From an uncultured Bacillota bacterium (GTDB taxonomy: Bacteria; Bacillota_I; Bacilli_A; RF39; UBA660), in assembly GCA_947168485.1 (NCBI GenBank), contig CAMVLZ010000003.1, forward strand, positions 32,997 to 96,996: a DNA stretch of 64,000 bases. The letters run 5' to 3'. Positions 13,360 through 30,330 of the stretch are shown one piece after another. A program made the position numbers and the translations under genes. The notes beneath the pieces were generated by a model, which was not told the origin of the DNA, searched no databases, and saw nothing but the letters and a program-made list of their open reading frames with translations. Within the stretch, counting starts at the first letter, position 1. Each line of letters begins with the position of its first letter.

Positions 13360-14336
13360 ATCCATACTCCAAAGATAATTCCAGCCATAGCAAACATTAA
13401 TCCTATAACCCAGAATACTTTTACTATATCTTGTTCATTCCAACCTAATTTCTCAAAATGATGATGTAGTGGTGTCATTAAAAATACTTTTCTTTTGAAT
13501 GCTAGAACTGAGAAGTTTTGTATTATTACTGTTAATGTTTCAATAATAAATACTCCAGCAACTACTACTAATGTTAATTCTCTATGAGTTAATATAGCTA
13601 TAGCTCCCATTACTGCTCCTAAAGCAAGAGATCCTGTATCTCCCATAAATACTTTAGCAGGATGAGTATTAAACATTAAGAATCCTAATAATGAACCAGC
13701 TAATATTAAAGAAAATATTCCAATGTCTTCAAAACCAACTACAAATGATATTAAACTGAAGGCAACGAATGCGATTGCGGATAATCCTCCAGCTAATCCA
13801 TCTAAACCATCAGTTAAATTAACTGCGTTGCTTCCTCCAACTAATATAAACAATATAAATAATCCATATAACCAAGACATTTCTATATCAATATGAAGAG
13901 TACCAACTACCCAAGAAGTTTGTCCTCCACCTCTCATATATATATAAAAGAAGCCTATTGCGATTAATACTTGTAATATTAGTTTTTGATATTCATTTAA
14001 TCCTTCATTATTACCTCGTTTTATTGATAAGAAATCATCTAAAAATCCTATTAATGAATAACCTAAGAATACTAATAATACTATTCCTAAATTAGATGTA
14101 TATGATAATTTACCTGTCAATAATAAAGCAAGTGTTAATAATGTTGTTGGTAATATGAATATTAATCCTCCCATAGTAGGTGTACCATTCTTTTGAATAT
14201 GTGTTTTTCCTACATATGAACTTATTCTTTGTCCTATATTAAAATGTCTTAATACAGGTAATAAGAATAATCCTAATATTACTGATAACAAAAATCCTAA
14301 ACAGGCTGCGAGTACAGCTTTTGTTAATAATAACAT
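13356..14336 (-). CDS. mraY: Phospho-N-acetylmuramoyl-pentapeptide transferase
   Basis: Polytopic membrane protein with NAVNLTDGLDGLA, FMGDTGSLALG and PLHHHFE motifs. Confidence 0.95.
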   Translation of the reverse strand: MLLLTKAVLAACLGFLLSVILGLFLLPVLRHFNIGQRISSYVGKTHIQKNGTPTMGGLIFILPTTLLTLALLLTGKLSYTSNLGIVLLVFLGYSLIGFLDDFLSIKRGNNEGLNEYQKLILQVLIAIGFFYIYMRGGGQTSWVVGTLHIDIEMSWLYGLFILFILVGGSNAVNLTDGLDGLAGGLSAIAFVAFSLISFVVGFEDIGIFSLILAGSLLGFLMFNTHPAKVFMGDTGSLALGAVMGAIAILTHRELTLVVVAGVFIIETLTVIIQNFSVLAFKRKVFLMTPLHHHFEKLGWNEQDIVKVFWVIGLMFAMAGIIFGVWI

Positions 14337-14421: not shown

Positions 14422-15735
14422 TTAATTATTTAATGTTTTGATTTTACTAGTATGTTCTGATAATAAACTTTCTTCTCTACTTCTAATATTATCTATCTGA
14501 TATCTTTTTTCATCTATATTAGAATCTATAGTTTCTAAATTATTTAATAAAGACTTATAATCAGGATCATCACTATAATCTTTATAATTAGAGTTTAATT
14601 CACTAATTAATTTTTTTATTTCATCTGATGTTTTCTCTAATGATTTAGATGCATCTTTTATAGAATTAATACCCTTTTTTATCTTTTCTCTATAATCTTT
14701 TATTTCATACTTAATATCTTCTCTTATAGTATATCTATCATTCATAATTCTATTTATTAAATATACTCCTACTGCGACTTCTACAGCCATTCTTCTAGAA
14801 CTTTTTCTTGGATTAAGTACTAAATCTGTTGCGATAATCGCTAATAACAAATTAGATAAGTTATGGGCTTTTCTTACTCTTACTAAAGTTTTTTCTTTTA
14901 TACTAGTAGCGTTCTTAACTAAATCTTGTAAATTACTTAATTCTTCTGAAGCTGCTGATTCAAATGAAGAAAACTTATCACTTTTACTTTTTAATCCTTC
15001 ATATTTACTTCTTATACTATCTATATTCTTTTTATTAGTATTAATCTCATTACTTTTATTATTAACAGTAGTTTTTAAATTATCTTTTACTTTTAATAAA
15101 CTATTAATTCTATTAGATATTTCTATATATAAAGGAGATGATTTAATCTCTTTTACTACGTTTTGATTATTAAATTCTTTTATATAGTTTTGTACTAAAT
15201 CATATATATATTTATCATCATACTTATTAGGTACTTCTAATTTCTTTTTTAATTCATCTATCTTTCTAGTTAATATGTTTAGATTATTCATTATCTTATC
15301 AATTTCTTCTTTATTATAAGTAGATTTAGTATTATCTTCTATCTCTTTAAATTCTGTATCTATTTCTCTTAAATCATATCTAATATCTTTTAATCTTTTA
15401 GAGTACTCTTCTACTATTTTATATGATGTATATTTTTCTAGTTCTTTAGATTTAGTTTCTTCATCTAACTTAGTTATTTCAGTTATATTTTCTTCTTTAG
15501 GTTTATCTTCTATAATTATTTCTTTCTTTTTAGGAGTCTTTTTCTTTTCTTTTAATTTAGTTATTTCTTTTTTATTTAGTTTTATTTCTTTAACTGGTTT
15601 TTGTTTAGATGTTTTATTTAATGCTAAAAAAGGAATTATAATTAATAATTCTTGTAGTTTTTTCTTCTTCTCTTCTTCTTTTTTCTTTTTATTTTCTCTA
15701 TAAAAAAGTATTTTAAATTTATTAAATAATTTCAT
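14422..15735 (-). CDS. Hypothetical K/E-rich coiled-coil protein with two central hydrophobic helices
   Basis: Long ORF with a lysine-rich N-terminus, heptad-like K/E/N sequence, and LLLAIIATDLVL and VEVAVGVYLINRI segments. Confidence 0.6.
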   Translation of the reverse strand: MKLFNKFKILFYRENKKKKEEEKKKKLQELLIIIPFLALNKTSKQKPVKEIKLNKKEITKLKEKKKTPKKKEIIIEDKPKEENITEITKLDEETKSKELEKYTSYKIVEEYSKRLKDIRYDLREIDTEFKEIEDNTKSTYNKEEIDKIMNNLNILTRKIDELKKKLEVPNKYDDKYIYDLVQNYIKEFNNQNVVKEIKSSPLYIEISNRINSLLKVKDNLKTTVNNKSNEINTNKKNIDSIRSKYEGLKSKSDKFSSFESAASEELSNLQDLVKNATSIKEKTLVRVRKAHNLSNLLLAIIATDLVLNPRKSSRRMAVEVAVGVYLINRIMNDRYTIREDIKYEIKDYREKIKKGINSIKDASKSLEKTSDEIKKLISELNSNYKDYSDDPDYKSLLNNLETIDSNIDEKRYQIDNIRSREESLLSEHTSKIKTLNN

Positions 15736-15746
15736 ATAATTCCTTT

Positions 15747-15777
15747 CAATAAAAGAGTATTTTTTTAATACTCTTTT
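15747..15777 (-). terminator. Rho-independent terminator after the tandem paralogue pair
   Basis: AAGAGTATT/AATACTCTT hairpin followed by a U-tract on the minus strand. Confidence 0.55.
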
Positions 15778-15783
15778 ATTATA

Positions 15784-16656
15784 CTATTTTTTCTTTGGTT
15801 TTGCTTTAATTATTTCTTTACTATTATCAATATTATCTTGTACTGTGTAATCATTATTTAATACATTCTTTAAGTATTTTAAACCATTTTTAATTATATA
15901 GTTTCTATCTTCATTATAAGTTTGTTTCTTTATTTCATTTGCTGTATAGTCTTCTAAATCTCCATCTATTTCTTTATGAGACATAGTTTTATGTTTTAAA
16001 TAGTTATTATACTTAAATAAATTAGAAATATTAGTATTATATTTAGATGTATATAATGGTTGATCTTCATTAACAGTAATCTTCTTTTCAATAATACCAT
16101 CATTAAAATCTACGTATGATGCTAATTCTACATAATCTAAATATTCTGCTCCTTGATGATTTAAATCTAATAAAGTTGCTTCTAAAGTAGATTCTATAAT
16201 ACTTTGTAATTTATAATAACCTGTATTATAGATTTCTAAATTTACTAATCTTTCTTGGATAGCAAGTTGTTTTCTAATGTCTTCAACATCTCTAAATTTA
16301 GAGTTATCTTTTTCTTCTTCTATTAAATTCTTTATCTTCTTAGGACTTAATAATTCAGTAGAATCTACTTCATCTTGTGTTACTTTGATATCATTTAATC
16401 TTTTATTATCATTTAACATTTCAGATAATTCTATATAATAACCTAAGTTATCTACTGATCTAATATCTTCTGAAGTAATTTCATCTTTTTCTAATACATC
16501 TCCTATACAACTAACTGGTTGATCATTAGTTATATAATAAGAAACATTATATTCTAAGTCTTTAGCTGGATCATCTGATTTTAAAACAAATCCTGATGAA
16601 CATAATAGCGCTACTGCTACTCCTATACTAGTTATTTTAATTCTACTCTTTTTCAT
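15784..16656 (-). CDS. Hypothetical exported or anchored protein, paralogue of 16659..17483
   Basis: N-terminal hydrophobic segment. It shares YIELSE.LN....L..I.V...E.D...LL.P..I.NLIE and a C-terminal YL..VL.NDY block with the upstream gene. Confidence 0.6.
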   Translation of the reverse strand: MKKSRIKITSIGVAVALLCSSGFVLKSDDPAKDLEYNVSYYITNDQPVSCIGDVLEKDEITSEDIRSVDNLGYYIELSEMLNDNKRLNDIKVTQDEVDSTELLSPKKIKNLIEEEKDNSKFRDVEDIRKQLAIQERLVNLEIYNTGYYKLQSIIESTLEATLLDLNHQGAEYLDYVELASYVDFNDGIIEKKITVNEDQPLYTSKYNTNISNLFKYNNYLKHKTMSHKEIDGDLEDYTANEIKKQTYNEDRNYIIKNGLKYLKNVLNNDYTVQDNIDNSKEIIKAKPKKK

Positions 16657-16658
16657 TT

Positions 16659-17483
16659 TTATTCCCCCTTTGGTACTAGTTTCTTTAAATGACCATTATA
16701 TCTATCTACTGTTTCATAATCATTAATTAGTACTCTATTTAAATATTTTATATAATCATTTATTTCTTTATTTGTTTCTTTATGATATGATCTTTTATCT
16801 TCATTTTGTTCATGTTTAGATAAGTTTAATGATAGTATTACATATTTTCCTAAGTCTGATTTAGATTTTGCAGTAAATGTTGCTGTTCCTGTTACATAAG
16901 CAATTTTTTTAGTTCTATCATGATTTAGGCATACTGATTCATAACCTGTTGTTGTTAATCTTGAATTTTCATTTTCACTCATTTCAGTACAATCAATTAT
17001 TTGTGATTTAGTAATTATTTCTTCAATATTAGGTGCTTCTACATATGCAAAATTATATATATGTTCATTAATTAAAGCTTCTTCTATTTTTAACATTTCC
17101 CTTATTTGATCTTTTTTATCTTCATCATCTACCATTTCAATTAAATTATATATTTGATCTGGTTTTAATAAAGTGCTTTGATCAATTTCTTCTTTTGGTA
17201 CTTCGATCTTTTTTAATACTGACATTTTATTTAGTTTTTCTGATAATTCTATATAATCTTTTATTGTATATAGATCAGATATTTCTTTAGACAAATGATT
17301 TTCTATTATTAATTCATCTACTATACTATCATCAAAATCATCTTCTAAAGCTTTTTTAATATCAATATTAAAATCATGTCTTGAATCATAAACACCAATT
17401 CCAGCTTGTACTATTAGTGCTGCAGCTATTGCGGTTGCAACTGCTGCGATATTTTTTTTCTTTTTTAATCTATCATTTAACAT
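16659..17483 (-). CDS. Hypothetical membrane-anchored protein, paralogue of 15784..16656
   Basis: I moved the start to the ATG at 17481-17483 (MLNDRLKKKK) because GGTGGAG lies 7 nt upstream and a -10 box overlaps the track's upstream start. Confidence 0.6.
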   Translation of the reverse strand: MLNDRLKKKKNIAAVATAIAAALIVQAGIGVYDSRHDFNIDIKKALEDDFDDSIVDELIIENHLSKEISDLYTIKDYIELSEKLNKMSVLKKIEVPKEEIDQSTLLKPDQIYNLIEMVDDEDKKDQIREMLKIEEALINEHIYNFAYVEAPNIEEIITKSQIIDCTEMSENENSRLTTTGYESVCLNHDRTKKIAYVTGTATFTAKSKSDLGKYVILSLNLSKHEQNEDKRSYHKETNKEINDYIKYLNRVLINDYETVDRYNGHLKKLVPKGE

Positions 17484-17504
17484 AATTATCTCCACCGGGG
17501 ACAT

Positions 17505-17513
17505 ATTATAACA
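17505..17513 (-). promoter_or_regulatory. Extended -10 box (TGTTATAAT) for the paralogue pair
   Basis: The minus strand reads TGTTATAAT between the terminator at 17532-17558 and the RBS at 17490-17496. Confidence 0.45.
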
Positions 17514-17531
17514 TAATGTTGGAGAATAGTC

Positions 17532-17558
17532 AAAAAAAAAAGGACCAATTGGTCCTTT
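17532..17558 (-). terminator. Strong rho-independent terminator ending the mraZ-to-giant-gene operon
   Basis: Palindrome AAAGGACCAATTGGTCCTTT followed by a 10-U tract on the minus strand, immediately after the stop at 17560. Confidence 0.8.
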
Positions 17559-17559
17559 A

Positions 17560-20500
17560 TTACTTAGATTGTTTCTTTCCTTTTGATTCAGCTTTCTCTT
17601 TTAATTTGTTAAACATACCTTTTACTTCATCTTTTAATGAAGCGCTTTCTTCTTCCATTTCAATAGGTTCTCTTTCTTCTGGAGCATATTCACCTAACAT
17701 TTCCTTCATATCTCTTTCTTTTCTTTCTTCTTCTGTTTCAATTTCGATAGATGGTTCTTCTTCAGGTTCATCTTGTATAGGCATACTCTTTTCTTCCTCT
17801 TCTTCAAGTTTCTTTTCTTCTTCTAACTCTGGTTCTTCTATAAATTCTCCAGATTCTAGAGCTTGATCTAATTCAATAGAATCTCCTACTAATTCTTCTA
17901 AAGATGAAATTGGTTTTTCAAATCCTTTTTGAGATTGAGAAGCTGTATAAGCAGTGATTAGAGTTGCTCCTGCTATACCAATGATTGGAGCTATAATACT
18001 TTGAGGTATTTCTTCAACTACTAATTGTTGTAGAGCTCCACCTTGTTGAATTGCATCAAGTAATGCTTGGTTTTCTGCATCTAAAGCACTAGGATTTTCA
18101 ATCATTTTTTTCATAGCTGGAATTAAAACATTATAATCAAATTCTGGATGGTTAGCAGCATATTCTTCTACTTTAGGTAAAGTTTCTTTTAGCAATTCAA
18201 CATATTGAGTATGTGTATCTAAGTTTAATTGTCTAATTTGATCTAAACCATCAATAGTAGATAATTGTCCACTTTGCATTTTTGATTGAATGTCTTGAAC
18301 TTGTTGTGTTACAGTTTCATAAGATTGACGTAATCCCATATGATGTTGTGTATCAACAGTCGTATAGTCAGCTGGTTTATCCCAGAAATCATCTCTCATT
18401 TCATCATGGTTTCTATATCCAGTGAAGTCACCTTCTCTTTGATGTTCCATACCTTGTGCTAATTCTTTATCGTGATCTTCTAATTGTTTTCCACGTGCAT
18501 GTACTTCATCCATAACACCTTGATTAGCTTCATTTCCTCTTCTAACTTCAATGTTATGTTGAATTGCTCCAATAGTATGAGCTATTGTTGCGACAGTAGC
18601 AACTGTAGTAATCATATTTCTAATGAATGGATCAGGTCTATAATCCATCTCATGAGCTAAAACAGCATAATTAACTGTACCTACTTCCCCAATTCCTGCT
18701 GGAATAATTGGGATTCCTTCAGGTATTAATGGATTACCTTTAAGTATTCTAACCCATACTAATCCTTGTTTAGAAGCTTGGTATTTTAATTGCTCTCCTT
18801 TAACAAATAATAACATTGATTCTAAATCTTTATTTTCATCTAAAGAGTCTGATAGGGCTTGAGCAACTTCTGCTCTCATCTTTCTTCCTTCAAAATCTTC
18901 CCCAGTACCAACGTCTCTAGCAAATCGTTTACCTTTTTCATTCATCATTGATGATTTGGCTTTCTCTTCTTCTTCAAGAGCATGAATTCCTGTTCCATTG
19001 AAATCTTTTGATAATTCTTTATTTAATTCTTGGAATCTTTTGATTTTTTCAGCTTTACCTTGAATTAATGCTCCTTGAACAGTCTTTAATTCACCAATTA
19101 ATTGTTCTCTTGTTATTCCATCTACATCAATTTCTACTCCTGGTATTTGTTTTAATACCTCTAATGGAAGTCCATCTTCTAATTGTTCAACTAGAGCACC
19201 ATATTTTTTATATAGTTTGTATGATTCCATTATTTCTGTAAAGATTCTACCTGCTTCTTCCACTTTTGGTTTTATTACAGTTTCTCTCTTATATTTTATA
19301 GCTTCCTCTCTAATAATTCCGTCTATACCTTTATCTCTATCAGATGCAGCTGCTATATTAATATATTCATTAAATAACACTTCTTTATCTTCGTCTGGTA
19401 AATCTTGAATATTTTGTCTTACTTTTTCAAATTTTTCTTTTGTACGTTTTGTTGTTAATAATTTTCCAGAAAGTTTTTGAACAGTTGATGATAATAATCC
19501 CCATACAGCAGAAGCTATACTTGTAACATTATAAATTACTTGTCCATTTTTTACTTGATTACCAAAGTTTCTTGTGATTGAAATTTCAGATCTTTCTAAT
19601 CTCTTTCTTTGAATATGCGTTACATTTATTGGTTCTCCTGTTTCTTTATCAGTTATAATATCTGTTTTTATTACTTCTAAAACTCTACCTTTTTTCTTTG
19701 GCATTTCTTTGTTTTCTTCAATAGGTTCTTTTTCTTCAGGATCTTTTTCTTCTTCTTCTTGATGATCATCTTGAGGAGTTTGTCCTTCTATTCCTATTGG
19801 ACCTAAATCACCATCATCAACAAAGTCATTATCTTCATCATTACCATTGTCATCAGAATCATCTTCTGAATCATCATCTGAGTCATCACCATTCTCTTCA
19901 TCTTGATTATCATCTGAGTCATTATTTTGATCATCATCTGAGTCATTATTTTGATCATCATCTGAAGTTTCTGGTGTATCATTAGCTGGTTCTTCATTTG
20001 AATCATTTCCTGAGTCATCATCTGATCCGTTATCTGAACCATCATCTGGAGTTGTTCCATCTATACCAGGAACTACTATTGGTTCTTCATTTTGAATAGA
20101 TTCTCTTCCTCTACTTAATTCTTCTTGATTATTTTCAATAATTTGAGTATTCTTTTCTATTTCTTCTTGAAGCTTATCTATTCTTTCTTGATACTCTCTT
20201 TGTTTATCTTTAGCAAATCCTAATCTATCTTTTGCTTGAGTATATTCTAATTTTTTAGCTTTTTGAATATCTAACTCTTCATTATTAGTTAATAATTCAA
20301 TATACTCTTGATTCTTTTCCATCATTTCTTCACAAATACTAATTGCTTGTTCATCAAAGAATCTTTTGTTTTTAAGAGCTTTTTCTAATTCTTCTTCTAA
20401 TTCATTAATTCTTAATTGTGCTTCTATTGTTTCTTGTTCTAAATCATTAATTCTTTCTTCTGAAAGATTTTCTTCTATTTCAGGTTCTTCTATATCTTCA

Positions 20501-22248
20501 TCTAATGCATCATTTAATGCGATTAATTCTCTGCATCCTGATTGTTTAGCAATTGCTTCATCAATTTTAGTAGTTAAATATTCTGCATATTCTGGTTCTT
20601 CTCCATCATTATTTTTAATTAATGATTCGAATCTTCTGATTTGCTTAGTATAAGCTGAATTTAATTCTTTAGCATGTTTTAATACTTCTTCTTGAGCTTC
20701 ATCACCTTTTGCACAAGCTTCAAAGAACTCTTTCTCTAATTCAGCAATTTGCTCATTAATTTCAGCACCAACTATTTCTGTTCTAGGTTCTCTCTCACCT
20801 AGGTCTAAATCAATATATTCATCTTCTGGTGATCTCTCAGTTCTTGGTTGTCTTTCAATTGGTCCTAAATCGATATAATCATCTTCTGGTGATTTTGATT
20901 CCATTCTAGGTGCTCTTTCAAGATTTATATCCATATATTCATCTTCTACATTATGTTCTTTTACTTCTTCTTTATCTTTTTGTTGTTCTGCTTCATGTGT
21001 TCTAATGTATTCAATTGCTTTTTGAATACTATCATCATCATATGTATCTAGTTTTTCTTGAATATCAGCTATTTGTTGTTGTGTATCTTCAACTAGTGAT
21101 TTATCTGATCCGTTTCTTACCAATTCATTTCGTTTATTTGTCAAATCAAAATAATCATTTAATAAATTTAATAATTCTCTATCATCATTTATTTGTTTTT
21201 CTCTAATATAATCCATAGCTGCATCTTGATCATCTAAATTATATAAACTCATTTTTTCTGTAACATCATTTATTTTGCTTGTTAATTTGTCTATTTCTGA
21301 TTGGTCAGCACCTGATCTTTCAAGAGCTTCTCTTTGAGCAAATAAATCATTAAATGTTTCTTGTAATTCTACCAATTCTTTTACTTCTTTTTTTAGAGTT
21401 TTTTCTTGATTTTCTTCTATATTTAAGTATTCATCTTCTACATTATGTTCTTTTACTTCTTCTTTATCTTTTGATCTTTGTTGTTCAAATTCTTGTTCTC
21501 TAATATACTCAATAGCATCTTGTATTTCATATTCTTCATGAGTATCTAGTTTTGCTGAAATATCATCTATTTGTGCTTGAATAGCATCAATTAACATCTT
21601 ATCAGCATTTTTTCTTACTAATTCATTTCTTTCATTAGTTAAATCAAAATAATCATCTAGTAAATCTACTAAATCCTTATTTATTTCTTTTTCTGGGATT
21701 TCTTCTTCAATATCTTGAACTTCGTCTTTTACTTCTTCTTTTTCTTCTTGTTCCATAGCTTGAACAGCGTTAACTATCTCTTCGTTTGAATAAAATTCAA
21801 ATGTTTTGTCTAAATCTTCTAATTCTTCATTTATTCTTTCAATATGTTTATCAATACTTTTTATAGAAGAATCTAATTCATTTAATCTTGTATAGTATTC
21901 TTGTGTAGTTTCTTCAGGTACATTAGCTTGTAGAGATTCTAATTCTCTTTCTTGACGTTCTCTTCTATTTATTAATTCTTTCTTTTCTTCTTCTAAAGCA
22001 TCATATTTATTAATTTCTTCTATAATCTTATCATTTGGTTTTAATTCAGATTCTCTTTTTTCTAAAGATACTAATTCAGATTCAAGTCTATCTATAGTTT
22101 CTTGTATTTGAGCCTTTTGTTGAGATTTATATTCTTCATCAGTTAAATTGTCCAAATCTGCTAAGATGTGGGCATTTCTTTCTAGAGCTTCTTTCTTTTT
22201 AGAAATTAAATCTTGTACTTCTTTCATACTTGTTATTTCATAAAACAT
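17560..22248 (-). CDS. Giant (~1560 aa) acidic coiled-coil protein with internal repeats, a D/N/S-rich tract and hydrophobic segments in the C-terminal half
   Basis: Uninterrupted ORF. The likely start is the ATG at 22246-22248, with AGGAG 8 nt upstream (the track start is a GTG). E/K/D-rich heptad-like sequence. Two ~80-aa repeats. Hydrophobic stretches include IIAPIIGIAGATLITAYTA. Confidence 0.75.
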   Translation of the reverse strand: MFYEITSMKEVQDLISKKKEALERNAHILADLDNLTDEEYKSQQKAQIQETIDRLESELVSLEKRESELKPNDKIIEEINKYDALEEEKKELINRRERQERELESLQANVPEETTQEYYTRLNELDSSIKSIDKHIERINEELEDLDKTFEFYSNEEIVNAVQAMEQEEKEEVKDEVQDIEEEIPEKEINKDLVDLLDDYFDLTNERNELVRKNADKMLIDAIQAQIDDISAKLDTHEEYEIQDAIEYIREQEFEQQRSKDKEEVKEHNVEDEYLNIEENQEKTLKKEVKELVELQETFNDLFAQREALERSGADQSEIDKLTSKINDVTEKMSLYNLDDQDAAMDYIREKQINDDRELLNLLNDYFDLTNKRNELVRNGSDKSLVEDTQQQIADIQEKLDTYDDDSIQKAIEYIRTHEAEQQKDKEEVKEHNVEDEYMDINLERAPRMESKSPEDDYIDLGPIERQPRTERSPEDEYIDLDLGEREPRTEIVGAEINEQIAELEKEFFEACAKGDEAQEEVLKHAKELNSAYTKQIRRFESLIKNNDGEEPEYAEYLTTKIDEAIAKQSGCRELIALNDALDEDIEEPEIEENLSEERINDLEQETIEAQLRINELEEELEKALKNKRFFDEQAISICEEMMEKNQEYIELLTNNEELDIQKAKKLEYTQAKDRLGFAKDKQREYQERIDKLQEEIEKNTQIIENNQEELSRGRESIQNEEPIVVPGIDGTTPDDGSDNGSDDDSGNDSNEEPANDTPETSDDDQNNDSDDDQNNDSDDNQDEENGDDSDDDSEDDSDDNGNDEDNDFVDDGDLGPIGIEGQTPQDDHQEEEEKDPEEKEPIEENKEMPKKKGRVLEVIKTDIITDKETGEPINVTHIQRKRLERSEISITRNFGNQVKNGQVIYNVTSIASAVWGLLSSTVQKLSGKLLTTKRTKEKFEKVRQNIQDLPDEDKEVLFNEYINIAAASDRDKGIDGIIREEAIKYKRETVIKPKVEEAGRIFTEIMESYKLYKKYGALVEQLEDGLPLEVLKQIPGVEIDVDGITREQLIGELKTVQGALIQGKAEKIKRFQELNKELSKDFNGTGIHALEEEEKAKSSMMNEKGKRFARDVGTGEDFEGRKMRAEVAQALSDSLDENKDLESMLLFVKGEQLKYQASKQGLVWVRILKGNPLIPEGIPIIPAGIGEVGTVNYAVLAHEMDYRPDPFIRNMITTVATVATIAHTIGAIQHNIEVRRGNEANQGVMDEVHARGKQLEDHDKELAQGMEHQREGDFTGYRNHDEMRDDFWDKPADYTTVDTQHHMGLRQSYETVTQQVQDIQSKMQSGQLSTIDGLDQIRQLNLDTHTQYVELLKETLPKVEEYAANHPEFDYNVLIPAMKKMIENPSALDAENQALLDAIQQGGALQQLVVEEIPQSIIAPIIGIAGATLITAYTASQSQKGFEKPISSLEELVGDSIELDQALESGEFIEEPELEEEKKLEEEEEKSMPIQDEPEEEPSIEIETEEERKERDMKEMLGEYAPEEREPIEMEEESASLKDEVKGMFNKLKEKAESKGKKQSK
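19804..20049 (-). repeat. Low-complexity coding tract for a D/N/S/E-rich acidic linker (about aa 737-818 of the giant protein)
   Basis: DDGSDNGSDDDSGNDSNEE...DDDQNNDSDDDQNNDSDDNQDEENGDDSDDDSEDDSDDNGNDEDND. Short imperfect GAT/GAA-rich DNA repeats. Confidence 0.8.
20935..21174 (-). repeat. Internal ~80-codon repeat, copy B, of the giant gene
   Basis: LLNLLNDYFDLTNKRNELVR...IQKAIEYIRTHEAEQQKDKEEVKEHNVEDEY matches copy A. The DNA string tcatcttctacattatgttcttttacttcttctttatctttt is found in both copies. Confidence 0.8.
21427..21672 (-). repeat. Internal ~80-codon repeat, copy A, of the giant gene
   Basis: LVDLLDDYFDLTNERNELVR...IQDAIEYIREQEFEQQRSKDKEEVKEHNVEDEY. Confidence 0.8.
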
Positions 22249-22516
22249 TTTGAACACTCCTATCTATCTCTTGTAATACTTCTTTTACCATTTCTACTTC
22301 TTCTGGAGTAGTTACTTTTTCTAATCTATCAGGTCCAAATACTGGGTCATATGAAGAATAATAAATATTTTGTCTTCCATCTGGTGTTTTAGTATTATCT
22401 GTATATCCAATATAAACTTTACCAGTATCTTCTGAAGAAAAAGTGAAAAGTACATCACATTCTGTTTTCTTTCCATTAATATCTACAGTTATTTTTTGTT
22501 CTTCCATTATTTCCAT
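22238..22516 (-). CDS. DUF1292 (UPF0473, YrzB-like) protein
   Basis: ECDVLFTFSSEDTGKVYIGY and TPEEVEMVKEVLQE match the YrzB pattern E.EVLFTF.S.E.GK.Y ... EW..IEEVL. Confidence 0.8.
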   Translation of the reverse strand: MEIMEEQKITVDINGKKTECDVLFTFSSEDTGKVYIGYTDNTKTPDGRQNIYYSSYDPVFGPDRLEKVTTPEEVEMVKEVLQEIDRSVQNVL

Positions 22517-22517
22517 A

Positions 22518-23027
22518 TTATTTCTTCCCTTCTATATATAGATTTACTACACTTTCTTTTTTCTGATCTTCTTTAAGCTTTATTTTCAAATGATAAGTTT
22601 TTACATCTTTTTTCTTACTTAGTAATGAATAATACTCTGTTACATTATTATTACCAAGTATATTTTTATTATCACCTTTAAGCGTCATTGTATATTCAGC
22701 TTTAGCTTCACTATTAACATAAAACCTATACTTATATTTATCTTTATTAATATCAGATTCTCTATAGTTAGTTATATTAAATACATAATCAACTATTTCA
22801 TCTTTTTTCTTATTACTAATATTTACACTTACTGTATTTAGTTTTTCTTCAATAACTGGTATTGTAAAATCCGCTCCTTTTGTTAGATTATATTCTTTTT
22901 TAGCAGAATTTAATCTAAACAATAAGTATATAACAAATATCAATAACAATATAAATATTGATAATAATACATAGTCTGATATAGTTTTTTTCTTTTTTTC
23001 TTTAATCCTTTTCTTTATTTTACTCAT
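22518..23027 (-). CDS. Hypothetical N-terminally anchored protein (169 aa)
   Basis: Lysine-rich N-terminus, then the TM helix VLLSIFILLLIFVIYLLF, then a ~120-aa soluble domain. There is a 1-nt gap to the DUF1292 gene. Confidence 0.6.
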   Translation of the reverse strand: MSKIKKRIKEKKKKTISDYVLLSIFILLLIFVIYLLFRLNSAKKEYNLTKGADFTIPVIEEKLNTVSVNISNKKKDEIVDYVFNITNYRESDINKDKYKYRFYVNSEAKAEYTMTLKGDNKNILGNNNVTEYYSLLSKKKDVKTYHLKIKLKEDQKKESVVNLYIEGKK

Positions 23028-23036
23028 ATATTTCTC

Positions 23037-24413
23037 CTAACTTAATAATTTGTTCTTTACTCTATTGTTTTCATCTTTTAAATAATGCTTTTCTTCTTTA
23101 GTTAAAGAATCATATAAGATTATATTTGATGTTTCTTCTTCTATTTTAACATACTTTGATGCATTATTGATACAAGAAATATTCAAATTTAGTATTTTTT
23201 TCATTGTAGTCACATCTACTATATTTACAGATAGATTAATATCTTGAGTATAACTTTTTTTCTCATCTAATTTTATAATACTTCTATCATAAACAATATC
23301 AATCTTTTTATTATGTGAATAACCAACTACAAGTGATGTTTTTTTCTCTTCTCTATCAAACTCTATACTACCAATACTTTGTTCTTTATTATCTACTATT
23401 GAAGCAATATAATTATCTTTATTTCTTACTAAAGTAGTAATTGTATCTAACTTATTATTCTCTTTAGTCTCTATTCTTATTCGTTCATCTGTAGGTTCAA
23501 ATGACATAGTTTTATTAACTTTATCAATAATATGACCAAACTCAAATTTCTTTACATGATATAAATTATTAGTATAAATAGAAAACTCTATAAATTCATT
23601 TTTTTCTAATAACTTAGTTTCTGGTTTAATCTTCTTTAAGTTTGGATTTATTATATACATAATATTTTTAGCTCTACTATCTTTTTTAATATCTTTAATA
23701 ATACTATTTATTAATAATCGTAGTTTCATATCATCAAGTTTTAAATTATATTTTATTAGTTTTACATTGTTTTCATCATATGTAGTTTCTACTTTAGATG
23801 TAGTAATATCTTCTTCATTTATATTTTTAATTAAAGAATTAATTATAAAATCTTTAATATACTTAGTATTATAATCTTTATCTTTATGAGAATTAATTGT
23901 TTCAAAATATATAGCATTACCTAAATTAATATAATTATCTTTTAATCCTTCTAAATATTCATATTTAGTTGAATCATCTACTAATATCTTTTTATTTATA
24001 AGATTTTGATTATTAAGAGTAGTATTCATAGTAAATAGAAATTTTTTATTACTTAAATCTTGTTTAAAATTAATAGTAGTTTTAGTTCTACTTATATTAT
24101 TGTAATATCTATATAATTGTTTTAAATTATAATTTGTTTTAAAAATATCTTCTTCACTATTAACATTTAATTTTAAATTATAAGTATCATTAATATTGTT
24201 TCCTAGTACTGTGTCTTTTTTATCATAATGCATCATTTTATTAGTGTAATTATAAATACTATTTATAGTTTTTGAATATATAGTTTTTGGTTTAGAAGAT
24301 CTATTAAAAGATACTCCTATTACTAGTAAAATTACTGCTATAACCATTAAAAGAACTATTAATAATAGTTCTTTCTTTATATATTTATTTTTACTAGTAC
24401 CATTACTTCCCAT
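23037..24413 (-). CDS. Hypothetical N-terminally anchored protein (458 aa)
   Basis: TM helix LLLIVLLMVIAVILLVIGV followed by a large N/K-rich soluble region. Confidence 0.6.
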   Translation of the reverse strand: MGSNGTSKNKYIKKELLLIVLLMVIAVILLVIGVSFNRSSKPKTIYSKTINSIYNYTNKMMHYDKKDTVLGNNINDTYNLKLNVNSEEDIFKTNYNLKQLYRYYNNISRTKTTINFKQDLSNKKFLFTMNTTLNNQNLINKKILVDDSTKYEYLEGLKDNYINLGNAIYFETINSHKDKDYNTKYIKDFIINSLIKNINEEDITTSKVETTYDENNVKLIKYNLKLDDMKLRLLINSIIKDIKKDSRAKNIMYIINPNLKKIKPETKLLEKNEFIEFSIYTNNLYHVKKFEFGHIIDKVNKTMSFEPTDERIRIETKENNKLDTITTLVRNKDNYIASIVDNKEQSIGSIEFDREEKKTSLVVGYSHNKKIDIVYDRSIIKLDEKKSYTQDINLSVNIVDVTTMKKILNLNISCINNASKYVKIEEETSNIILYDSLTKEEKHYLKDENNRVKNKLLS

Positions 24414-24467
24414 AATTATCTATCCTACTATTAATATTATATAATTAATAGATAGTTATGTCAAAGA

Positions 24468-24983
24468 TTATATACTTTCAGTTAACAATGATAATTGTAT
24501 AGGTATATTGATAGCTTGTAGTTTTTTCTTTGTATAATTATATCTTGCGGTTACTTTAAGAGTTGTTTCTTCATTTGGAGATAATTCTTTACCAATAATA
24601 TTATTTATATCTATAGTTGCTGGAGCAATTGTTAATCTAGTATTATCATCATTGAAATAATCTGGTAAGGCTATTAAATTAGTTATTTTGCCTGCAACTT
24701 TACCAGTATTTTTTATCTTAATTAGGTAAGTTATCTCATCATTAGGAGTATATAAATCAAATGATAAGTCTACTGATAATCCATTATTTGTTATAGTAGC
24801 ATTTGATGTAGGACTATATTTTCCTGCTTGTATAGGATTTAATTTATTCATTGAAATAAACTCTATTTTATATTGAGATTTTTCTTTTATTACTGATGAT
24901 AATTTTATTATAGAAATAGCAAAAGCTAATGTTACTATAATTAATGAAATACATAGAGTAATTACTAGTTTTTTATTTTTCAT
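24468..24983 (-). CDS. Hypothetical N-terminally anchored protein (171 aa)
   Basis: I moved the start to the ATG at 24981-24983 (MKNKKLVITL), which has AAAGGGGAA upstream. One TM helix followed by a ~130-aa domain. Confidence 0.6.
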   Translation of the reverse strand: MKNKKLVITLCISLIIVTLAFAISIIKLSSVIKEKSQYKIEFISMNKLNPIQAGKYSPTSNATITNNGLSVDLSFDLYTPNDEITYLIKIKNTGKVAGKITNLIALPDYFNDDNTRLTIAPATIDINNIIGKELSPNEETTLKVTARYNYTKKKLQAINIPIQLSLLTESI

Positions 24984-24984
24984 A

Positions 24985-25788
24985 TTAACAATTCCCCTTT
25001 CTATAATCATTTAAACTTCCTCTATAGCAATAACCAATATCTATATTATTAACTGGTAATTCTATATATGCATATACTTTACTATCTTCAATGTAATAGT
25101 AACTATTACTTGTAGGATAAATAGATAATTCATCTACACTTATAGATTGTATATTTAATCTATGATTATCTTTTGATTCATCTTTAATATTATTCTTTGA
25201 TTGATATATTAATAATTTTTTATATACATAATCAGTATATTCTGAAATATTATCATTTTTAATTGATAATACATAATTTTTAGATTGACTGTCTAAAGAC
25301 TTTAATATTTCATCTTTATTTTGTGACTCTAATTTATACTTATTATTTAATTCTTCATATGAGGATACTTTTTCATTATAACTTGAATATTTCATATTAA
25401 AATACTCTTTATAAGTATTATTATCTTTATCATACTTAGTAACAATAATTTTACTATTATTACTTATTTTCTTTCTATCAGTTAATATCTTAATACTTTG
25501 AGATATTGCTTTAGATAAAGATTTATTTTCAATATTCTTATTATATAGAATTAATGAAGTTTCATTATAAAATATAATATTTATTACTTTATTATCTTTA
25601 GATAATTCATATCCAAATATATTATTATCTATTTGTATATCAATCAATCTATCTATCTCTGCTGAAGTAGTAATATGTTCACTACTTCCTATATTTGATT
25701 TAATTTCTGGAATACCTTTTACAACTACTAATACTATTATTACTATAACTACTATTATTGTTTCTATTAATATTTCATATTTTTTCAT
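24985..25788 (-). CDS. Hypothetical N-terminally anchored protein (267 aa), translationally coupled to pbpB
   Basis: The start overlaps the pbpB stop (4-nt overlap at 25785-25788). TM helix IIVVIVIIVLVVV. Confidence 0.6.
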   Translation of the reverse strand: MKKYEILIETIIVVIVIIVLVVVKGIPEIKSNIGSSEHITTSAEIDRLIDIQIDNNIFGYELSKDNKVINIIFYNETSLILYNKNIENKSLSKAISQSIKILTDRKKISNNSKIIVTKYDKDNNTYKEYFNMKYSSYNEKVSSYEELNNKYKLESQNKDEILKSLDSQSKNYVLSIKNDNISEYTDYVYKKLLIYQSKNNIKDESKDNHRLNIQSISVDELSIYPTSNSYYYIEDSKVYAYIELPVNNIDIGYCYRGSLNDYRKGNC

Positions 25789-27929
25789 TCTTTAAATTTA
25801 GGACTTAATGTTAATTTTATTTCTTTACCTTGTTCTAATTTAGAATTTGGTTTTATTGATTGAGATTTAACATATCCTACTCCATCTAATTTTACTTTTA
25901 ATCCTAATTCTTCTAATATAGATTTTGCTAATTTAGATGACATTCCTGTAACATCTGGTACTTTAATATTAGAATCATTAGTTATTAAATAGATTTTATC
26001 TTGATTAGTTACAATAGTATTAGCTTTAGGTATTTGTTTAATTATCTTATTGCCATCACCATATATCTTATAAGATATTTTATCGTGTTTTAATATAGTT
26101 TTGGCATCATCTATACTCTTATTAATGAAATTAGGTATTTTATAATCATGTACATCTATTTCTACTGTTTTTTTATCTTCATTTTTACCATAGTATTTTG
26201 CTAGATTTTTAATTATTTCTTTAACTGCATCTGATACAGGTTTTTGAGCTCCATTAGTTGGTTTCTTTACAGATGCATAAATTATTACTTTAGGATCAGA
26301 CTTAGGATATATTCCAGAGAAAGAGACAATAACATTATGAGCACCTGCAATATAACCACCATGTTTTTCATCTGCTATTTGAGCTGTACCTGTTTTTCCT
26401 ATTAATTCTTTAGAATCTAATCTAAAATAATAACCAGTATTTCCTACTCCATTAACAGTATTATCCATTAATTCTTTCATCTTTTTAACTGTTTGAGTAG
26501 ATGCAACTCTTTCTATTTCAGTCTTTTTATTTTGTACAATTACTTCATTAGTTTCTGGATCTACTATTTTTTCTACTAAATATGGTTGTAGCAATACTCC
26601 ATCATTAGTTAATGCAGTTAGTGCTTTAACATTTTGAATTGGAGTTGTTGTTATACCTTGACCGAATCCTGCATTAAATATTTCTGTTTCATATTTAAAA
26701 TTTAATTTACCTGTAGATTCATTAGGAAGAGGTATTCCTGTTTTTCTACCAAAACCTAATTTTTTATAATAACTTCTTAACATATTAGCACTCATATGTC
26801 TATGTATTAAATTGATAATACCTACATTACTAGAAAGAGCATAACCTCTATCAAAAGAGATGTTACCCCAACCACTTCTATTCCAGTCTCCTATTTCAGT
26901 TCCATCTTTAGTTTTATATACACCTGATCGATATGTTTCACTACCTTTATATACTCCATTTTCCATAGCTGCCATATAAGTAAATGTTTTCATAGTTGAA
27001 CCTGGTTCATATGGAGAAGATAGTAACATGTCCATATAATTCTTTATATCTCTTTTATTAGGATCAAATGATGGTTTAGATGAAGTTGCTAGAATAGCAC
27101 CTGTCTTTGCATCTAATAGAGTTATGTTATACCAATCCCATTTAAATCTTTTAGCTTGTTTATCCATAGCATTTTCTACATAAAATTGAATATTAGAATC
27201 TATTGTTAAATATATATCTTTACCAGATGTAGCTTCTTTAGTTTCAGTTTTAGTATCAGCTATTTTATATCCTTTTAAATCTTTTTGATATTTGATATAT
27301 CCATTTTCTCCTCTTAGAGTTTTATCATAGTATTTTTCAATACCCATTTCTCCTGTTACTTCATCATCTTCATAAGATTTTGGTTTAGCATAACCAATAG
27401 TATAAGATGCAAAATCTCCTTTTGGATAATATCTTCTATATGATTCAATAAAATCTAATCCTGGAAGATTTAAATCTTCTATTTTCTTTTTAGTTATCTC
27501 ATTTAAATTTTTACCTTTAGTTCCAAATTCTGTTTGATATACTTTTTCTTTACTTAAATATTTTAGTAATTTTTCTTCTTTTATACCTAATATTGGAGCT
27601 AGTTTCTCTGCTGTTTTTTCTTTATCTATAACATGTTGAGGATTCTTTTTATTAGTAGTTCTCTTTGGATCTAAATATGCAATAAGTTTGTATGCTGTCA
27701 CATTTTGAGCTAATAAATCACCATTTTTTGCATATATACTACCACGTTTAGCATATATTAAGTCAGTAGCAGTAGTTCTACGAGAAGCTAATTCTTTTAA
27801 ATCTACTCCATCTACTTTTTTTGATAAAGAAAGATAAGATAATCTATAAATAAAAACTGCAAACAAAAAAAGAGAAAGAAGTATTATCCATCCTGAATAT
27901 TTAATATTGTTTTTCTTTCTCTTGCTCAT
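25785..27929 (-). CDS. pbpB: Class B penicillin-binding protein (PBP2B/FtsI-type transpeptidase) with two C-terminal PASTA domains
   Basis: STMK (GSTMKTF), SSN (ALSSNVG) and KTGT (GKTGTAQ) motifs, an N-terminal TM anchor, two PASTA-like repeats at the C-terminus, and dcw context. Confidence 0.9.
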   Translation of the reverse strand: MSKRKKNNIKYSGWIILLSLFLFAVFIYRLSYLSLSKKVDGVDLKELASRRTTATDLIYAKRGSIYAKNGDLLAQNVTAYKLIAYLDPKRTTNKKNPQHVIDKEKTAEKLAPILGIKEEKLLKYLSKEKVYQTEFGTKGKNLNEITKKKIEDLNLPGLDFIESYRRYYPKGDFASYTIGYAKPKSYEDDEVTGEMGIEKYYDKTLRGENGYIKYQKDLKGYKIADTKTETKEATSGKDIYLTIDSNIQFYVENAMDKQAKRFKWDWYNITLLDAKTGAILATSSKPSFDPNKRDIKNYMDMLLSSPYEPGSTMKTFTYMAAMENGVYKGSETYRSGVYKTKDGTEIGDWNRSGWGNISFDRGYALSSNVGIINLIHRHMSANMLRSYYKKLGFGRKTGIPLPNESTGKLNFKYETEIFNAGFGQGITTTPIQNVKALTALTNDGVLLQPYLVEKIVDPETNEVIVQNKKTEIERVASTQTVKKMKELMDNTVNGVGNTGYYFRLDSKELIGKTGTAQIADEKHGGYIAGAHNVIVSFSGIYPKSDPKVIIYASVKKPTNGAQKPVSDAVKEIIKNLAKYYGKNEDKKTVEIDVHDYKIPNFINKSIDDAKTILKHDKISYKIYGDGNKIIKQIPKANTIVTNQDKIYLITNDSNIKVPDVTGMSSKLAKSILEELGLKVKLDGVGYVKSQSIKPNSKLEQGKEIKLTLSPKFKE

Positions 27930-27941
27930 CTATTTCACTTC

Positions 27942-28247: not shown

Positions 28248-28268
28248 AGTATCTCCTCTCTTTATATT

Positions 28269-30321: not shown

Positions 30322-30330
30322 AGCAATCCC

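What the first reader, a model, noticed from the sequence alone, without database searches (positions are those of the whole stretch)
14422..25788. An ~11 kb block of uncharacterised envelope and coiled-coil proteins lies in the dcw locus between pbpB and mraY
**Content.** In Bacillota the space between the class B PBP and mraY normally holds murE/murF (and sometimes spoVD). Here it holds nine ORFs, and the only family I can name is DUF1292.
- Four N-terminally anchored proteins of 267, 171, 458 and 169 aa.
- The DUF1292 protein.
- A ~1560-aa acidic coiled-coil protein.
- After a strong terminator, two tandem paralogues and a K/E-rich coiled-coil membrane protein.

**Operon structure.** The first six are packed against pbpB with a 4-nt overlap and gaps of 1-54 nt. 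I see no terminator between the mraZ promoter/operator (about 30360) and the hairpin at 17532-17558. The sequence therefore reads as one ~12.8 kb mraZ-rsmH-x-ftsL-pbpB-x-x-x-x-DUF1292-giant operon.

**Inference.** Co-transcription with the division core suggests a lineage-specific division or envelope module. This is my best candidate for an undescribed system in the window.
Basis: partly seen in the sequence, partly recalled or inferred. Interest (0 to 1): 0.7.

Follow-up and report, generated by a model that had tools for sequence, protein, structure and literature searches.

The report
Uncharacterised gene module behind pbpB
Directly after the cell-division penicillin-binding protein gene, this uncultured low-GC gut bacterium and at least 25 related species carry the same six unnamed genes (four small membrane-anchored proteins, a DUF1292 protein and a giant acidic coiled-coil protein), a real, conserved gene set whose function is still unknown.

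Summary
All nine ORFs exist at the stated coordinates, and Pfam passes threshold only for DUF1292.

The block is not one unit:
- **Conserved module.** pbpB-267-180-458-169-DUF1292-giant recurs in the same order in about 25 of 30 species-level MAGs. One of them, Ca. Faecimonas, is classified in order RF39. A hairpin plus T-tract follows the giant's stop in 31 of 31 loci.
- **Tightest pair.** DUF1292 plus the giant also occurs away from the dcw cluster. The giant's C-terminal ~600-aa helical domain defines a family with 380 representatives, and none has a meaningful name.
- **Window-specific genes.** The two tandem paralogues occur only in this window.
- **mraY partner.** The 437-aa protein sits directly upstream of mraY wherever it was seen.

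A single 12.8 kb transcript is doubtful. A near-consensus sigma-70 promoter lies before the 458-aa gene here and in 15 of 19 relatives.

New domain leads:
- The 267-aa protein has an RsgI SEAL-like juxtamembrane domain, but lacks the N-P cleavage hairpin and the anti-sigma domain.
- The 180-aa protein's ectodomain resembles a DUF11/DUF7507 Ig-like domain.

No Mur ligase, DivIB, phage or plasmid relatives were found. My best reading is a lineage-specific envelope or division accessory module. That function is inferred, not shown.

The parts
30325..30394 (-). mraZ promoter-like site (TTTACA-17-TATATT) and three AGTGG boxes about 10 nt apart, resembling a MraZ operator. Context only.
25785..30321 (-). 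mraZ, rsmH, a window-specific 223-aa anchored ORF, ftsL and class B PBP (pbpB). This is the division core that the module follows.
   Evidence: Pfam MraZ, Methyltransf_5, DivIC, PBP_dimer/Transpeptidase/PASTA on homologous loci
24985..25788 (-). 267-aa bitopic protein. It has about 5 cytoplasmic residues, a TM helix, an invariant GSS motif, an RsgI SEAL-like alpha/beta domain (about aa 44-150), a long helix (158-198) and a C-terminal beta-sheet with two invariant Cys (C254, C267).
24468..25010 (-). 171/180-aa bitopic protein. Its TM helix is unusually conserved (N12, L19, C20, T22, G29, F30). Its ectodomain resembles a DUF11/DUF7507 Ig-like beta-sandwich.
24436..24464 (-). Perfect sigma-70 consensus (TTGACA-17-TATAAT) in the gap before the 458-aa gene. 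An 11-12 of 12 match is conserved at this position in 15 of 19 relatives.
23037..24413 (-). 458-aa bitopic protein with a roughly 415-aa ectodomain of no recognised family. It is absent in two relatives (L021, L024).
22518..23027 (-). 169-aa bitopic protein: a K-rich N-terminus, a TM helix and a small ectodomain of no recognised family.
22238..22516 (-). DUF1292 protein: 92 aa, acidic, no TM segment. Its end overlaps the giant's likely start by 11 nt.
17560..22257 (-). Giant acidic protein, 1562-1565 aa, pI 4.4. It has an N-terminal coiled-coil region with repeats, a D/N/E-rich low-complexity linker, a conserved C-terminal ~600-aa all-helical domain with two uncharged Ala/Gly/Ser/Thr-rich helices, and an acidic tail.
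17875..19707 (-). Conserved C-terminal domain of the giant (aa 851-1461). Signature motifs are SGNxLYN, HGFxEDxKA, GKRF and DYRxDPFIR. It defines a family with 380 representatives (one per cluster at 50% identity).
17539..17558 (-). Intrinsic terminator directly after the giant's stop codon. An equivalent hairpin plus T-tract is present in 31 of 31 related loci.
17505..17533 (-). Strong promoter-like site (TTGACT-17-TGnTATAAT) for the tandem paralogues.
15784..17483 (-). Two tandem paralogues (274 and 290 aa, N-terminally anchored, acidic). They are specific to this window and are not part of the conserved module.
15751..15777 (-). AT-rich hairpin followed by TTTTATT, lying between the second paralogue and the 437-aa gene.
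   Evidence: read directly from the sequence
14422..15735 (-). 437-aa K/E-rich helical protein with two weakly hydrophobic stretches. Homologues of 489-562 aa lie immediately upstream of mraY in L003, L004, L013 and L022.
13356..14336 (-). mraY, with a TGnTATAAT extended -10 in the 85-nt gap upstream.

Best explanation
**Proposed function.** The six genes that follow pbpB form a conserved, chromosomal module specific to reduced-genome, low-GC gut Bacilli of the RF39 type. It most likely acts at the cell envelope together with the septal peptidoglycan machinery.

**Outer-face part.** Four bitopic proteins (N-in, C-out) would place small ectodomains on the outer face of the membrane next to FtsL and PBP2B:
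- a SEAL-like alpha/beta domain followed by a beta-domain with two conserved cysteines that could form a disulphide;
- a DUF11-type Ig-like domain;
- a 415-aa domain of no recognised family;
- a small domain of no recognised family.

**Cytoplasmic part.** A small acidic DUF1292 protein is probably translated together with the giant, because the two genes overlap. The giant would hold on to the membrane, or to the bitopic proteins, through its constant ~600-aa C-terminal helical domain. Its acidic coiled-coil arm projects into the cytoplasm as a scaffold or spacer. The length of that arm varies from about 260 to 1670 aa between species.

**Transcription.** Expression is partly coupled to the mra promoter by read-through. 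It is boosted by a conserved internal promoter before the 458-aa gene and ends at a conserved terminator after the giant.

**Shown.** Gene content, order, conservation, promoter and terminator motifs, and domain resemblances.

**Inferred.** Topology, complex formation and any role in division or wall synthesis.
For: **Synteny.** The same order directly after pbpB appears in about 25 species. Junctions are tight or overlapping.

**Transcription signals.**
- A hairpin plus T-tract follows the giant in 31 of 31 loci.
- The internal promoter is conserved in 15 of 19 relatives.

**Anchored proteins.**
- Each of the four has one strong N-terminal hydrophobic helix.
- The TM helix of the 180-aa family has invariant polar and small residues, which suggests helix-helix contacts in the membrane.
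- The 267-aa protein has two invariant C-terminal cysteines.

**267-aa protein.** The AlphaFold2 model has mean pLDDT 79. Its best PDB match is the B. subtilis RsgI SEAL domain (8t9n; E 5.7e-3, TM-score 0.69 on the target). Two of 23 family members hit Pfam RsgI_M, best E 5.3e-6.

**180-aa protein.** DUF7507 is hit by 12 of 25 members and DUF11 by 10 of 25.

**Giant.**
- No signal peptide is evident at its N-terminus, which reads as coiled coil.
- It has an acidic N-terminal arm (pI 4.1-5.4) of very variable length in front of a constant C-terminal domain.
- DUF1292 is always immediately upstream, even outside the dcw cluster.

**Not mobile.** There are no PHROG hits and no phage, plasmid or viral-contig relatives.

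**Lineage context.** RF39 is predicted to keep a thin, atypical wall after losing many canonical wall genes (PMC10868615).
Against: - There is no functional or expression data of any kind. Gene position is the only link to division.
- Strong internal promoters imply expression that can be uncoupled from mraZ-pbpB.
- DUF1292-giant sits in unrelated neighbourhoods in some lineages.
- The 458-aa gene is missing in two species.
- The giant's two hydrophobic helices are only weakly hydrophobic, and the C-domain model is of low confidence (mean pLDDT 58.8). Membrane attachment is therefore unproven.
- I could not test whether these genomes lack DivIB, EzrA, GpsB or similar proteins, so the idea that the module replaces lost components is open.
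Confidence: 0.45

Rival explanations
1. The genes encode cell-surface or host-interaction proteins, such as adhesins or surface-coat components of a gut symbiont. They sit downstream of pbpB by historical accident and are expressed from their own promoters.
For: - DUF11/DUF7507-type Ig-like domains are typical of surface proteins.
- The giant is acidic, repetitive and highly variable in length, as many surface proteins are.
- Strong conserved internal promoters are present.
- DUF1292-giant is found away from the dcw cluster.
- The window adds two fast-evolving, strain-specific anchored paralogues at the same spot.
Against: - The giant shows no evident signal peptide. DUF1292 is a small protein with no hydrophobic segment.
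- The anchored proteins are small (125-415-aa ectodomains), and no cell-wall-binding or sortase-type family was hit.
- The position immediately after pbpB, with overlapping or near-touching junctions, is kept across very divergent species at 22-35% protein identity. Mere hitch-hiking would not be expected to preserve that.
Confidence: 0.2
2. The module is an envelope-stress or mechanosensing device of the RsgI type. The SEAL-like protein would sense wall defects and pass the signal to the cytoplasmic DUF1292-giant pair.
For: - The best structural match of the 267-aa protein is the RsgI SEAL domain, and two family members hit Pfam RsgI_M.
- In B. subtilis, RsgI senses wall defects (PMC10556640, PMC9732909).
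Against: - None of 23 family members has the N-P scissile hairpin that almost all SEAL proteins carry (PMC10556640).
- The protein has only about 5 cytoplasmic residues, so there is no anti-sigma domain.
- No sigma factor gene lies within the module. One relative has a Sigma70_r4 gene upstream of mraZ.
Confidence: 0.1
3. The block is an integrated mobile element, a phage or ICE remnant, or a defence island inserted into the dcw cluster.
For: - The genes have no family assignment, and the giant recalls tape-measure-like or ICE coiled-coil proteins.
- G+C is slightly higher across the giant gene (0.29-0.32, against about 0.25 for the window).
Against: - No PHROG family matched apart from one sub-threshold coiled-coil hit.
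- tblastn found nothing in 50,697 phage or 72,556 plasmid records, and nothing in IMG/VR.
- No integrase, tRNA or repeat boundary was seen.
- The same position and order across about 25 species points to vertical inheritance.
- The PADLOC defence library was not searched.
Confidence: 0.03

Closest known systems
Lineage-specific accessory genes inside Bacillota dcw clusters (for example B. subtilis ylxW/ylxX (DUF881)-sbp, and divIB); recalled from general knowledge
   Same: These are small bitopic membrane proteins encoded between core division and wall genes. They are transcribed at least partly by read-through from the cluster's promoters.
   Different: There is no sequence or fold relation. 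No DUF881 or FtsQ/DivIB family was reported for the window proteins or for any member of the families scanned. Here six genes, one of them giant, sit directly after pbpB, where other Bacilli have spoVD/murE.
RsgI anti-sigma factor SEAL domain (Pfam RsgI_M; PDB 8t9n; PMC10556640)
   Same: The 267-aa protein has a juxtamembrane alpha/beta domain of similar fold just outside a single TM helix.
   Different: - It has no N-terminal anti-sigma domain.
- It has no N-P scissile beta-hairpin.
- It has no intrinsically disordered region and no glycan-binding module.
- Instead, a long helix and a beta-domain with two conserved cysteines follow.
DUF1292 / UPF0473 proteins (B. subtilis YrzB type)
   Same: The 92-aa protein passes the Pfam DUF1292 threshold, and relatives hit it clearly.
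   Different: From general knowledge, canonical DUF1292 genes sit with ireB and ruvX. Here the gene is fused into a pair with a giant coiled-coil protein. DUF1292 itself has no known function; none of the 7 papers that mention it carries the term in its title or abstract, and neither of the two I opened assigns it a function.
Membrane-tethered coiled-coil division scaffolds (EzrA, MapZ, DivIVA/GpsB) and Mycoplasma HMW-type acidic cytoskeletal proteins; analogy only, recalled from general knowledge
   Same: They share a long cytoplasmic coiled-coil or acidic arm attached to the membrane region, encoded near division genes.
   Different: No homology was found: Pfam, PDB-sequence and Foldseek searches were all negative. 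The polarity is opposite to EzrA, with the conserved domain at the C-terminus. Arm length varies about six-fold between species.

Membership tests
DUF1292 (PF06949) | Score at or above Pfam's gathering threshold | tested here: met
   The window protein scores 24.3 bits against a cut-off of 24.0. NCBIfam PRK13678 models reach E 4e-10 but fall below their cut-offs. Homologues in L004-L006 and L037-L039 carry precomputed DUF1292 hits.
RsgI SEAL domain (Pfam RsgI_M) | SEA-like alpha/beta fold next to the TM helix | tested here: met
   The AlphaFold2 model has pLDDT 79. The top Foldseek PDB hits are 8t9n_B and 8t9n_A (E 5.7e-3 and 1.7e-2, probability 1.00, TM-score 0.69 on the target). RsgI_M is hit by 2 of 23 family members, best E 5.3e-6.
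RsgI SEAL domain (Pfam RsgI_M) | Conserved N-P scissile bond in the beta1-beta2 hairpin (autoproteolysis site) | tested here: not met
   None of the 23 aligned sequences has N-P at the hairpin, and the turn is variable. The feature is defined in PMC10556640.
RsgI-type anti-sigma factor | Cytoplasmic N-terminal anti-sigma domain and a partner SigI gene | tested here: not met
   Only about 5 residues precede the TM helix. There is no sigma gene in the module.
DivIB/FtsQ | POTRA and FtsQ/DivIB C-terminal domains after one TM helix | tested here: not met
   No such Pfam family was reported at E <= 0.1 for the 23 members of the 267-aa family or for the other anchored-protein families. A profile search against PDB sequences was negative. 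FtsQ and DivIB are not among the Foldseek hits.
Mur ligases (MurE/MurF) | Mur_ligase N, M and C domains | tested here: not met
   No Mur ligase hit for any of the nine ORFs in Pfam or NCBIfam.
DUF11/DUF7507 (CARDB-like Ig fold) | Score above the family threshold for the ectodomain of the 180-aa protein | tested here: inconclusive
   The window protein scores 18.8 bits against a cut-off of 27. However, 12 of 25 members hit DUF7507 (best 4e-5) and 10 of 25 hit DUF11 (best 6.8e-4). No structure model was made.
Wzz / polysaccharide co-polymerase | Wzz domain bracketed by two TM helices | tested here: not met
   Only 6 of 24 members of the 458-aa family give weak hits (best 0.0034). The protein has a single N-terminal hydrophobic helix and no C-terminal TM segment.
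Phage, ICE or plasmid proteins | Homology to mobile-element protein families or records | tested here: not met
   PHROGs gave nothing apart from one coiled-coil hit at E 0.0066. There was no tblastn match in phage or plasmid records, and none in viral contigs.
Type VII secretion substrates (WXG100/LXG) | WXG100 or LXG domain above threshold, with EssC nearby | tested here: not met
   There are only sub-threshold WXG100 hits in the coiled coil of the 437-aa protein (17.3 bits against 27.3). No FtsK/EssC-type gene is in the window or in the related loci.
Single mra (dcw) operon | One transcript from the mraZ promoter through the giant gene | not testable with these tools
   In favour: no terminator-like site between 30360 and 17558. 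Against exclusivity: a perfect internal consensus promoter at 24464-24436, conserved in 15 of 19 relatives. RNA data are needed.

The most novel reading that the evidence does not exclude
RF39-type Bacilli have evolved their own divisome or elongasome sub-complex. It would be an extracytoplasmic assembly of four bitopic proteins that works with FtsL-PBP2B, coupled to a DUF1292-bound giant coiled-coil scaffold whose arm length is tuned per species. It would take over the tasks of accessory division proteins lost during genome reduction. That would also give DUF1292 its first functional context.
Probability: 0.25. Interest if true: 0.75.

Novelty: new variant of a known kind. Interest (0 to 1): 0.55.

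Why it matters
- **Lineage.** RF39 and its neighbours are abundant gut Bacilli known only from environmental sequence surveys. They have reduced genomes and a predicted thin, atypical wall, and how they build a septum is unknown (PMC10868615).
- **Candidates.** A six-gene set kept next to pbpB across the lineage is the most obvious candidate for lineage-specific wall or division machinery. Its signature domain spans 380 representative clusters, and none has a meaningful name.
- **Testable hypotheses.** Candidate partners for PBP2B/FtsL, a possible role for DUF1292, and a non-cleaving branch of the SEAL domain.
- **Limit.** Nothing here shows function, so for now the value is as a well-defined target rather than a discovery of mechanism.

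Tried and rejected
- **Family searches on the nine ORFs.** Pfam, NCBIfam and PHROGs gave only DUF1292 above threshold.
- **Profile searches against PDB sequences.** I searched the four anchored-protein families, the giant's C-domain and the 437-aa family. Nothing credible came back.
- **Alignment query in the search for homologous proteins.** A 32-sequence alignment of the giant's C-domain returned only one protein. A single-sequence query from a relative then gave 58 hits.
- **AlphaFold2 model of the giant's C-domain.** It is all-helical with mean pLDDT 58.8. Foldseek against the PDB found nothing below E 0.48.
- **Paralogy between the small anchored proteins.** hhalign of the 180-aa against the 169-aa family gave probability 10%, so no relation is shown.
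- **Relation of the 437-aa family to the giant.** Probability 0.7%, rejected.
- **DivIB reading of the 267-aa protein.** Rejected.
- **Autoproteolytic SEAL reading.** Rejected, because no N-P hairpin is present.
- **Wzz reading of the 458-aa protein.** Rejected as weak, and the topology does not fit.
- **Mobile-element origin.** Rejected.
- **Structure prediction with locus-derived rows.** Identifiers obtained through the listing of cluster members were accepted.
- **Not done.**
  - No PADLOC search.
  - No genome-wide inventory of division genes in these MAGs.

Full report
**1. What is in the window**

The window is a low-GC chromosomal stretch (about 25% G+C) with ordinary housekeeping genes: thrS, comEA/comEC, a SEDS protein, smc, pnp and a SAM riboswitch.

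The gene order on the minus strand is as follows:
- mraZ (29881-30321) and rsmH (28956-29897);
- a 223-aa anchored ORF (28269-28940);
- ftsL (27942-28247) and a class B PBP (25785-27929);
- ORFs of 267, 180, 458 and 169 aa, DUF1292 (92 aa) and a 1565-aa ORF;
- a terminator (17558-17539) followed immediately by TTGACT-17-TGnTATAAT (17533-17505);
- two paralogous ORFs, 30% identical, E 3e-14;
- a 437-aa ORF, then mraY (13356-14336).

Upstream of mraZ lie a promoter-like site and three AGTGG boxes with about 10-nt spacing.

Some details need refining:
- The giant most likely starts at ATG 22248, 8 nt after a GGAG. It then overlaps the end of DUF1292 by 11 nt.
- The first paralogue most likely starts at 17483, because the ATG at 17504 abuts the -10 box.
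- An AT-rich hairpin plus T-tract (15777-15751) follows the second paralogue.
- mraY has its own TGnTATAAT.

**2. Family searches**

Pfam, NCBIfam and PHROGs place only DUF1292 above a curated threshold. There is no Mur ligase, DivIB/FtsQ or DUF881 hit and no phage family.

Each of the four small proteins has one strong N-terminal hydrophobic helix. The hydrophobic stretches in the giant and in the 437-aa protein are weak, so calling either a membrane protein is not secure.

**3. The block is conserved, but only part of it**

A search with the giant's non-repetitive C-terminal region found four homologues in 5.8 billion clustered proteins. The contigs that hold the upstream region (L004, L006) already showed the same neighbourhood after pbpB.

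A scan of one genome per GTDB species found 30 loci. All are uncultured MAGs, mostly from gut, faecal or rumen samples, labelled Bacilli, Mollicutes, Tenericutes, Erysipelotrichaceae or Ca. Faecimonas. Ca. Faecimonas is GTDB genus CAG-877, family CAG-611, order RF39 (PMC8035907).

phmmer with the window's proteins recovers this order in about 25 of the loci, at only 22-35% identity to the window:

mraZ-rsmH-ftsL-pbpB-267-180-458-169-DUF1292-giant

The same order is seen on a 1.15 Mb contig and in a distant member.

Variations on the order are:
- A 148-aa cytidine-deaminase-like gene is inserted between the 458- and 169-aa genes in one subclade.
- The 458-aa gene is absent in L021 and L024.

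The last three genes of the finding behave differently:
- **Tandem paralogues.** They have no homologue in any locus. That includes L003, the closest relative (54% identity in the giant), where the giant is followed after 92 nt by the 437-aa homologue.
- **437-aa protein.** Its homologues (489-562 aa) lie immediately upstream of mraY in L003, L004, L013 and L022.
- **Intervening genes.** In L004 and L013 MYG1, a 176-aa anchored protein and a second class B PBP separate that pair from the giant; in L022 other genes, including PBP-like ORFs, do so.

So "between pbpB and mraY" describes this genome. The conserved entity is the six genes after pbpB.

**4. The tightest unit is DUF1292 plus the giant**

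An exhaustive HMMER search with the family profile found the following among representatives of clusters at 50% identity:
- 380 representatives at E <= 1e-3;
- 224 representatives at E <= 1e-30.

The names recovered for sampled members were "hypothetical protein [Bacilli bacterium]" and one implausible "muramidase" label.

In two distant members (L038, L040) the giant lies outside the dcw cluster, yet a small gene still sits directly upstream:
- In L038 it is a DUF1292 gene that overlaps the giant's start by 8 nt.
- In L040 it is an 86-aa gene with no family assignment.

In L038 the pair lies about 7 kb downstream of sepF-divIVA-ileS.

The conserved ~600-aa domain always lies at the C-terminus, with 17-70 aa after it. 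The N-terminal arm ranges from about 260 to 1670 aa and is acidic everywhere, pI 4.1-5.4. The window's arm contains roughly 85-aa helical repeats, seen by eye, and a D/N/E-rich linker.

**5. Transcription signals**

However, the 54-nt gap before the 458-aa gene holds a perfect TTGACA-17-TATAAT (24464-24436). An 11-12 of 12 match sits at the same place in 15 of 19 relatives. Many relatives also have a TTGACT/TTGACA-17 site before DUF1292.

A hairpin plus T-tract begins within about 15 nt of the giant's stop in 30 of 31 loci, and is present in all 31. My criteria for that scan were lax for AT-rich DNA, but the fixed position is what counts.

The module therefore has a conserved end and at least one conserved internal start. 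It is not simply one mra transcript.

**6. What the proteins look like**

*The 267-aa protein.* The AlphaFold2 model was built from 9 sequences and has mean pLDDT 79. It shows:
- a TM helix, then a disordered juxtamembrane stretch that carries an invariant GSS motif;
- an alpha/beta domain (about aa 44-150);
- a 40-residue helix;
- a four-stranded C-terminal sheet with two invariant cysteines.

Foldseek's only credible PDB match is the SEAL domain of B. subtilis RsgI (8t9n; E 5.7e-3, TM-score 0.69 on the target). Independently, 2 of 23 family members hit Pfam RsgI_M, best E 5.3e-6.

SEAL domains autocleave at a conserved N-P in the beta1-beta2 hairpin, and almost all of them keep those residues (PMC10556640). 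None of the 23 sequences here has N-P at that turn. The protein also has no cytoplasmic anti-sigma domain. It resembles a SEAL domain in fold but is not an RsgI-type sensor as defined.

*The 180-aa protein.* Members repeatedly give sub-threshold hits to DUF7507 (12 of 25) and DUF11 (10 of 25), which indicates an Ig-like beta-sandwich. Its TM helix has invariant N, C, T, G and F positions.

*The 458- and 169-aa families.* Neither matches anything consistently. Weak Wzz hits in 6 of 24 members do not fit the single-TM topology.

*The giant's C-domain.* The model is all-helical but of low confidence (mean pLDDT 58.8). It has no fold or sequence match in the PDB.

Conserved motifs in the domain include:
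- SGNxLYN;
- HGFxEDxKA;
- GKRF;
- DYRxDPFIR.

After these come two uncharged segments of about 20 residues rich in Ala, Gly, Ser and Thr. They could be a membrane hairpin or buried core helices.

*The 437-aa family.* It is helical, has no matches and is unrelated to the giant.

**7. Interpretation**

*Firmly shown.* This is a vertically inherited, lineage-specific six-gene module glued to ftsL-pbpB. It has its own internal promoter and terminator. Its families are otherwise unannotated.

*Inferred.* The four bitopic proteins would form an extracytoplasmic assembly beside the septal synthase. DUF1292 and the giant would form a cytoplasmic scaffold, anchored through the giant's C-domain. I put about 0.45 on an envelope or division accessory role.

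*Rivals.*
- Surface or host-interaction proteins: 0.2.
- An RsgI-like sensing device: 0.1.
- A mobile element: 0.03. It has no PHROG, phage, plasmid or viral-contig relatives.

*Context.* RF39 is predicted to have a thin, atypical wall after losing many canonical wall genes (PMC10868615). That makes lineage-specific replacements plausible. I could not inventory division genes in these genomes.

**8. Verdict**

The conserved link to pbpB is real. The single operon and the 11 kb unity are not.
- The module is uncharacterised. A literature search combining RF39, cell division and penicillin-binding returned no papers, and a broader RF39 search surfaced nothing that describes it.
- It is a good, well-delimited target rather than a demonstrated new mechanism. 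Interest 0.55.

Noticed in passing
window 62080-62179 (-): SAM riboswitch (RF00162; 69.9 bits, E 2.8e-14). It lies upstream of the minus-strand ORF 61176-62012.
   Followed up: no
window 30325-30360 (-): Three AGTGG boxes about 10 nt apart lie between the -10 box and the mraZ start codon. They look like a MraZ operator in this AT-rich lineage.
   Followed up: partly
window 28269-28940 (-): A 223-aa N-terminally anchored ORF sits between rsmH and ftsL. None of the related loci has it; there rsmH is followed directly by ftsL. No family was hit.
   Followed up: partly
L004:8658-9104, L006:6497-6943 and equivalents in L008, L013, L014, L018, L019, L036: In one subclade a 148-aa cytidine/dCMP-deaminase-like gene (Pfam dCMP_cyt_deam_1, MafB19-deam) is inserted inside the module, between the 458- and 169-aa genes.
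   Followed up: no
window 7514-10597 (-): A 1027-aa ORF combines a glycoside hydrolase family 10 domain with a PHP domain, which is an unusual pairing.
   Followed up: no
L011:5732-9844, L029:4835-9826 (N-terminal arms of long giants): The long forms of the giant start with a different N-terminal segment (IIYEDExVxEKVFEGD...). Their internal repeats give summed sub-threshold Pfam hits (Penicillinase_R, GLMA_C, DUF5343), which suggests repeated small domains rather than plain coiled coil.
   Followed up: partly
window 14337-14421 and 15751-15777 (-): mraY has its own TGnTATAAT extended -10. An AT-rich hairpin with only 2 G-C pairs follows the second paralogue. The terminator scan misses hairpins with so few G-C pairs.
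   Followed up: partly
L039:1477-2409: In one distant relative a 310-aa protein with a Sigma70_r4 domain lies between thrS and mraZ, just upstream of the dcw cluster that carries the module.
   Followed up: no
L037:8379-10000: On the 1.15 Mb contig about 1.6 kb between DUF1292 and the called start of the giant has no called gene. The cause could be a longer N-terminal arm, a frameshift or an assembly problem.
   Followed up: no
tool behaviour: the search for homologous proteins returned fewer hits with a 32-sequence alignment than with a single sequence. It even missed proteins identical to rows of the query.
   Followed up: partly
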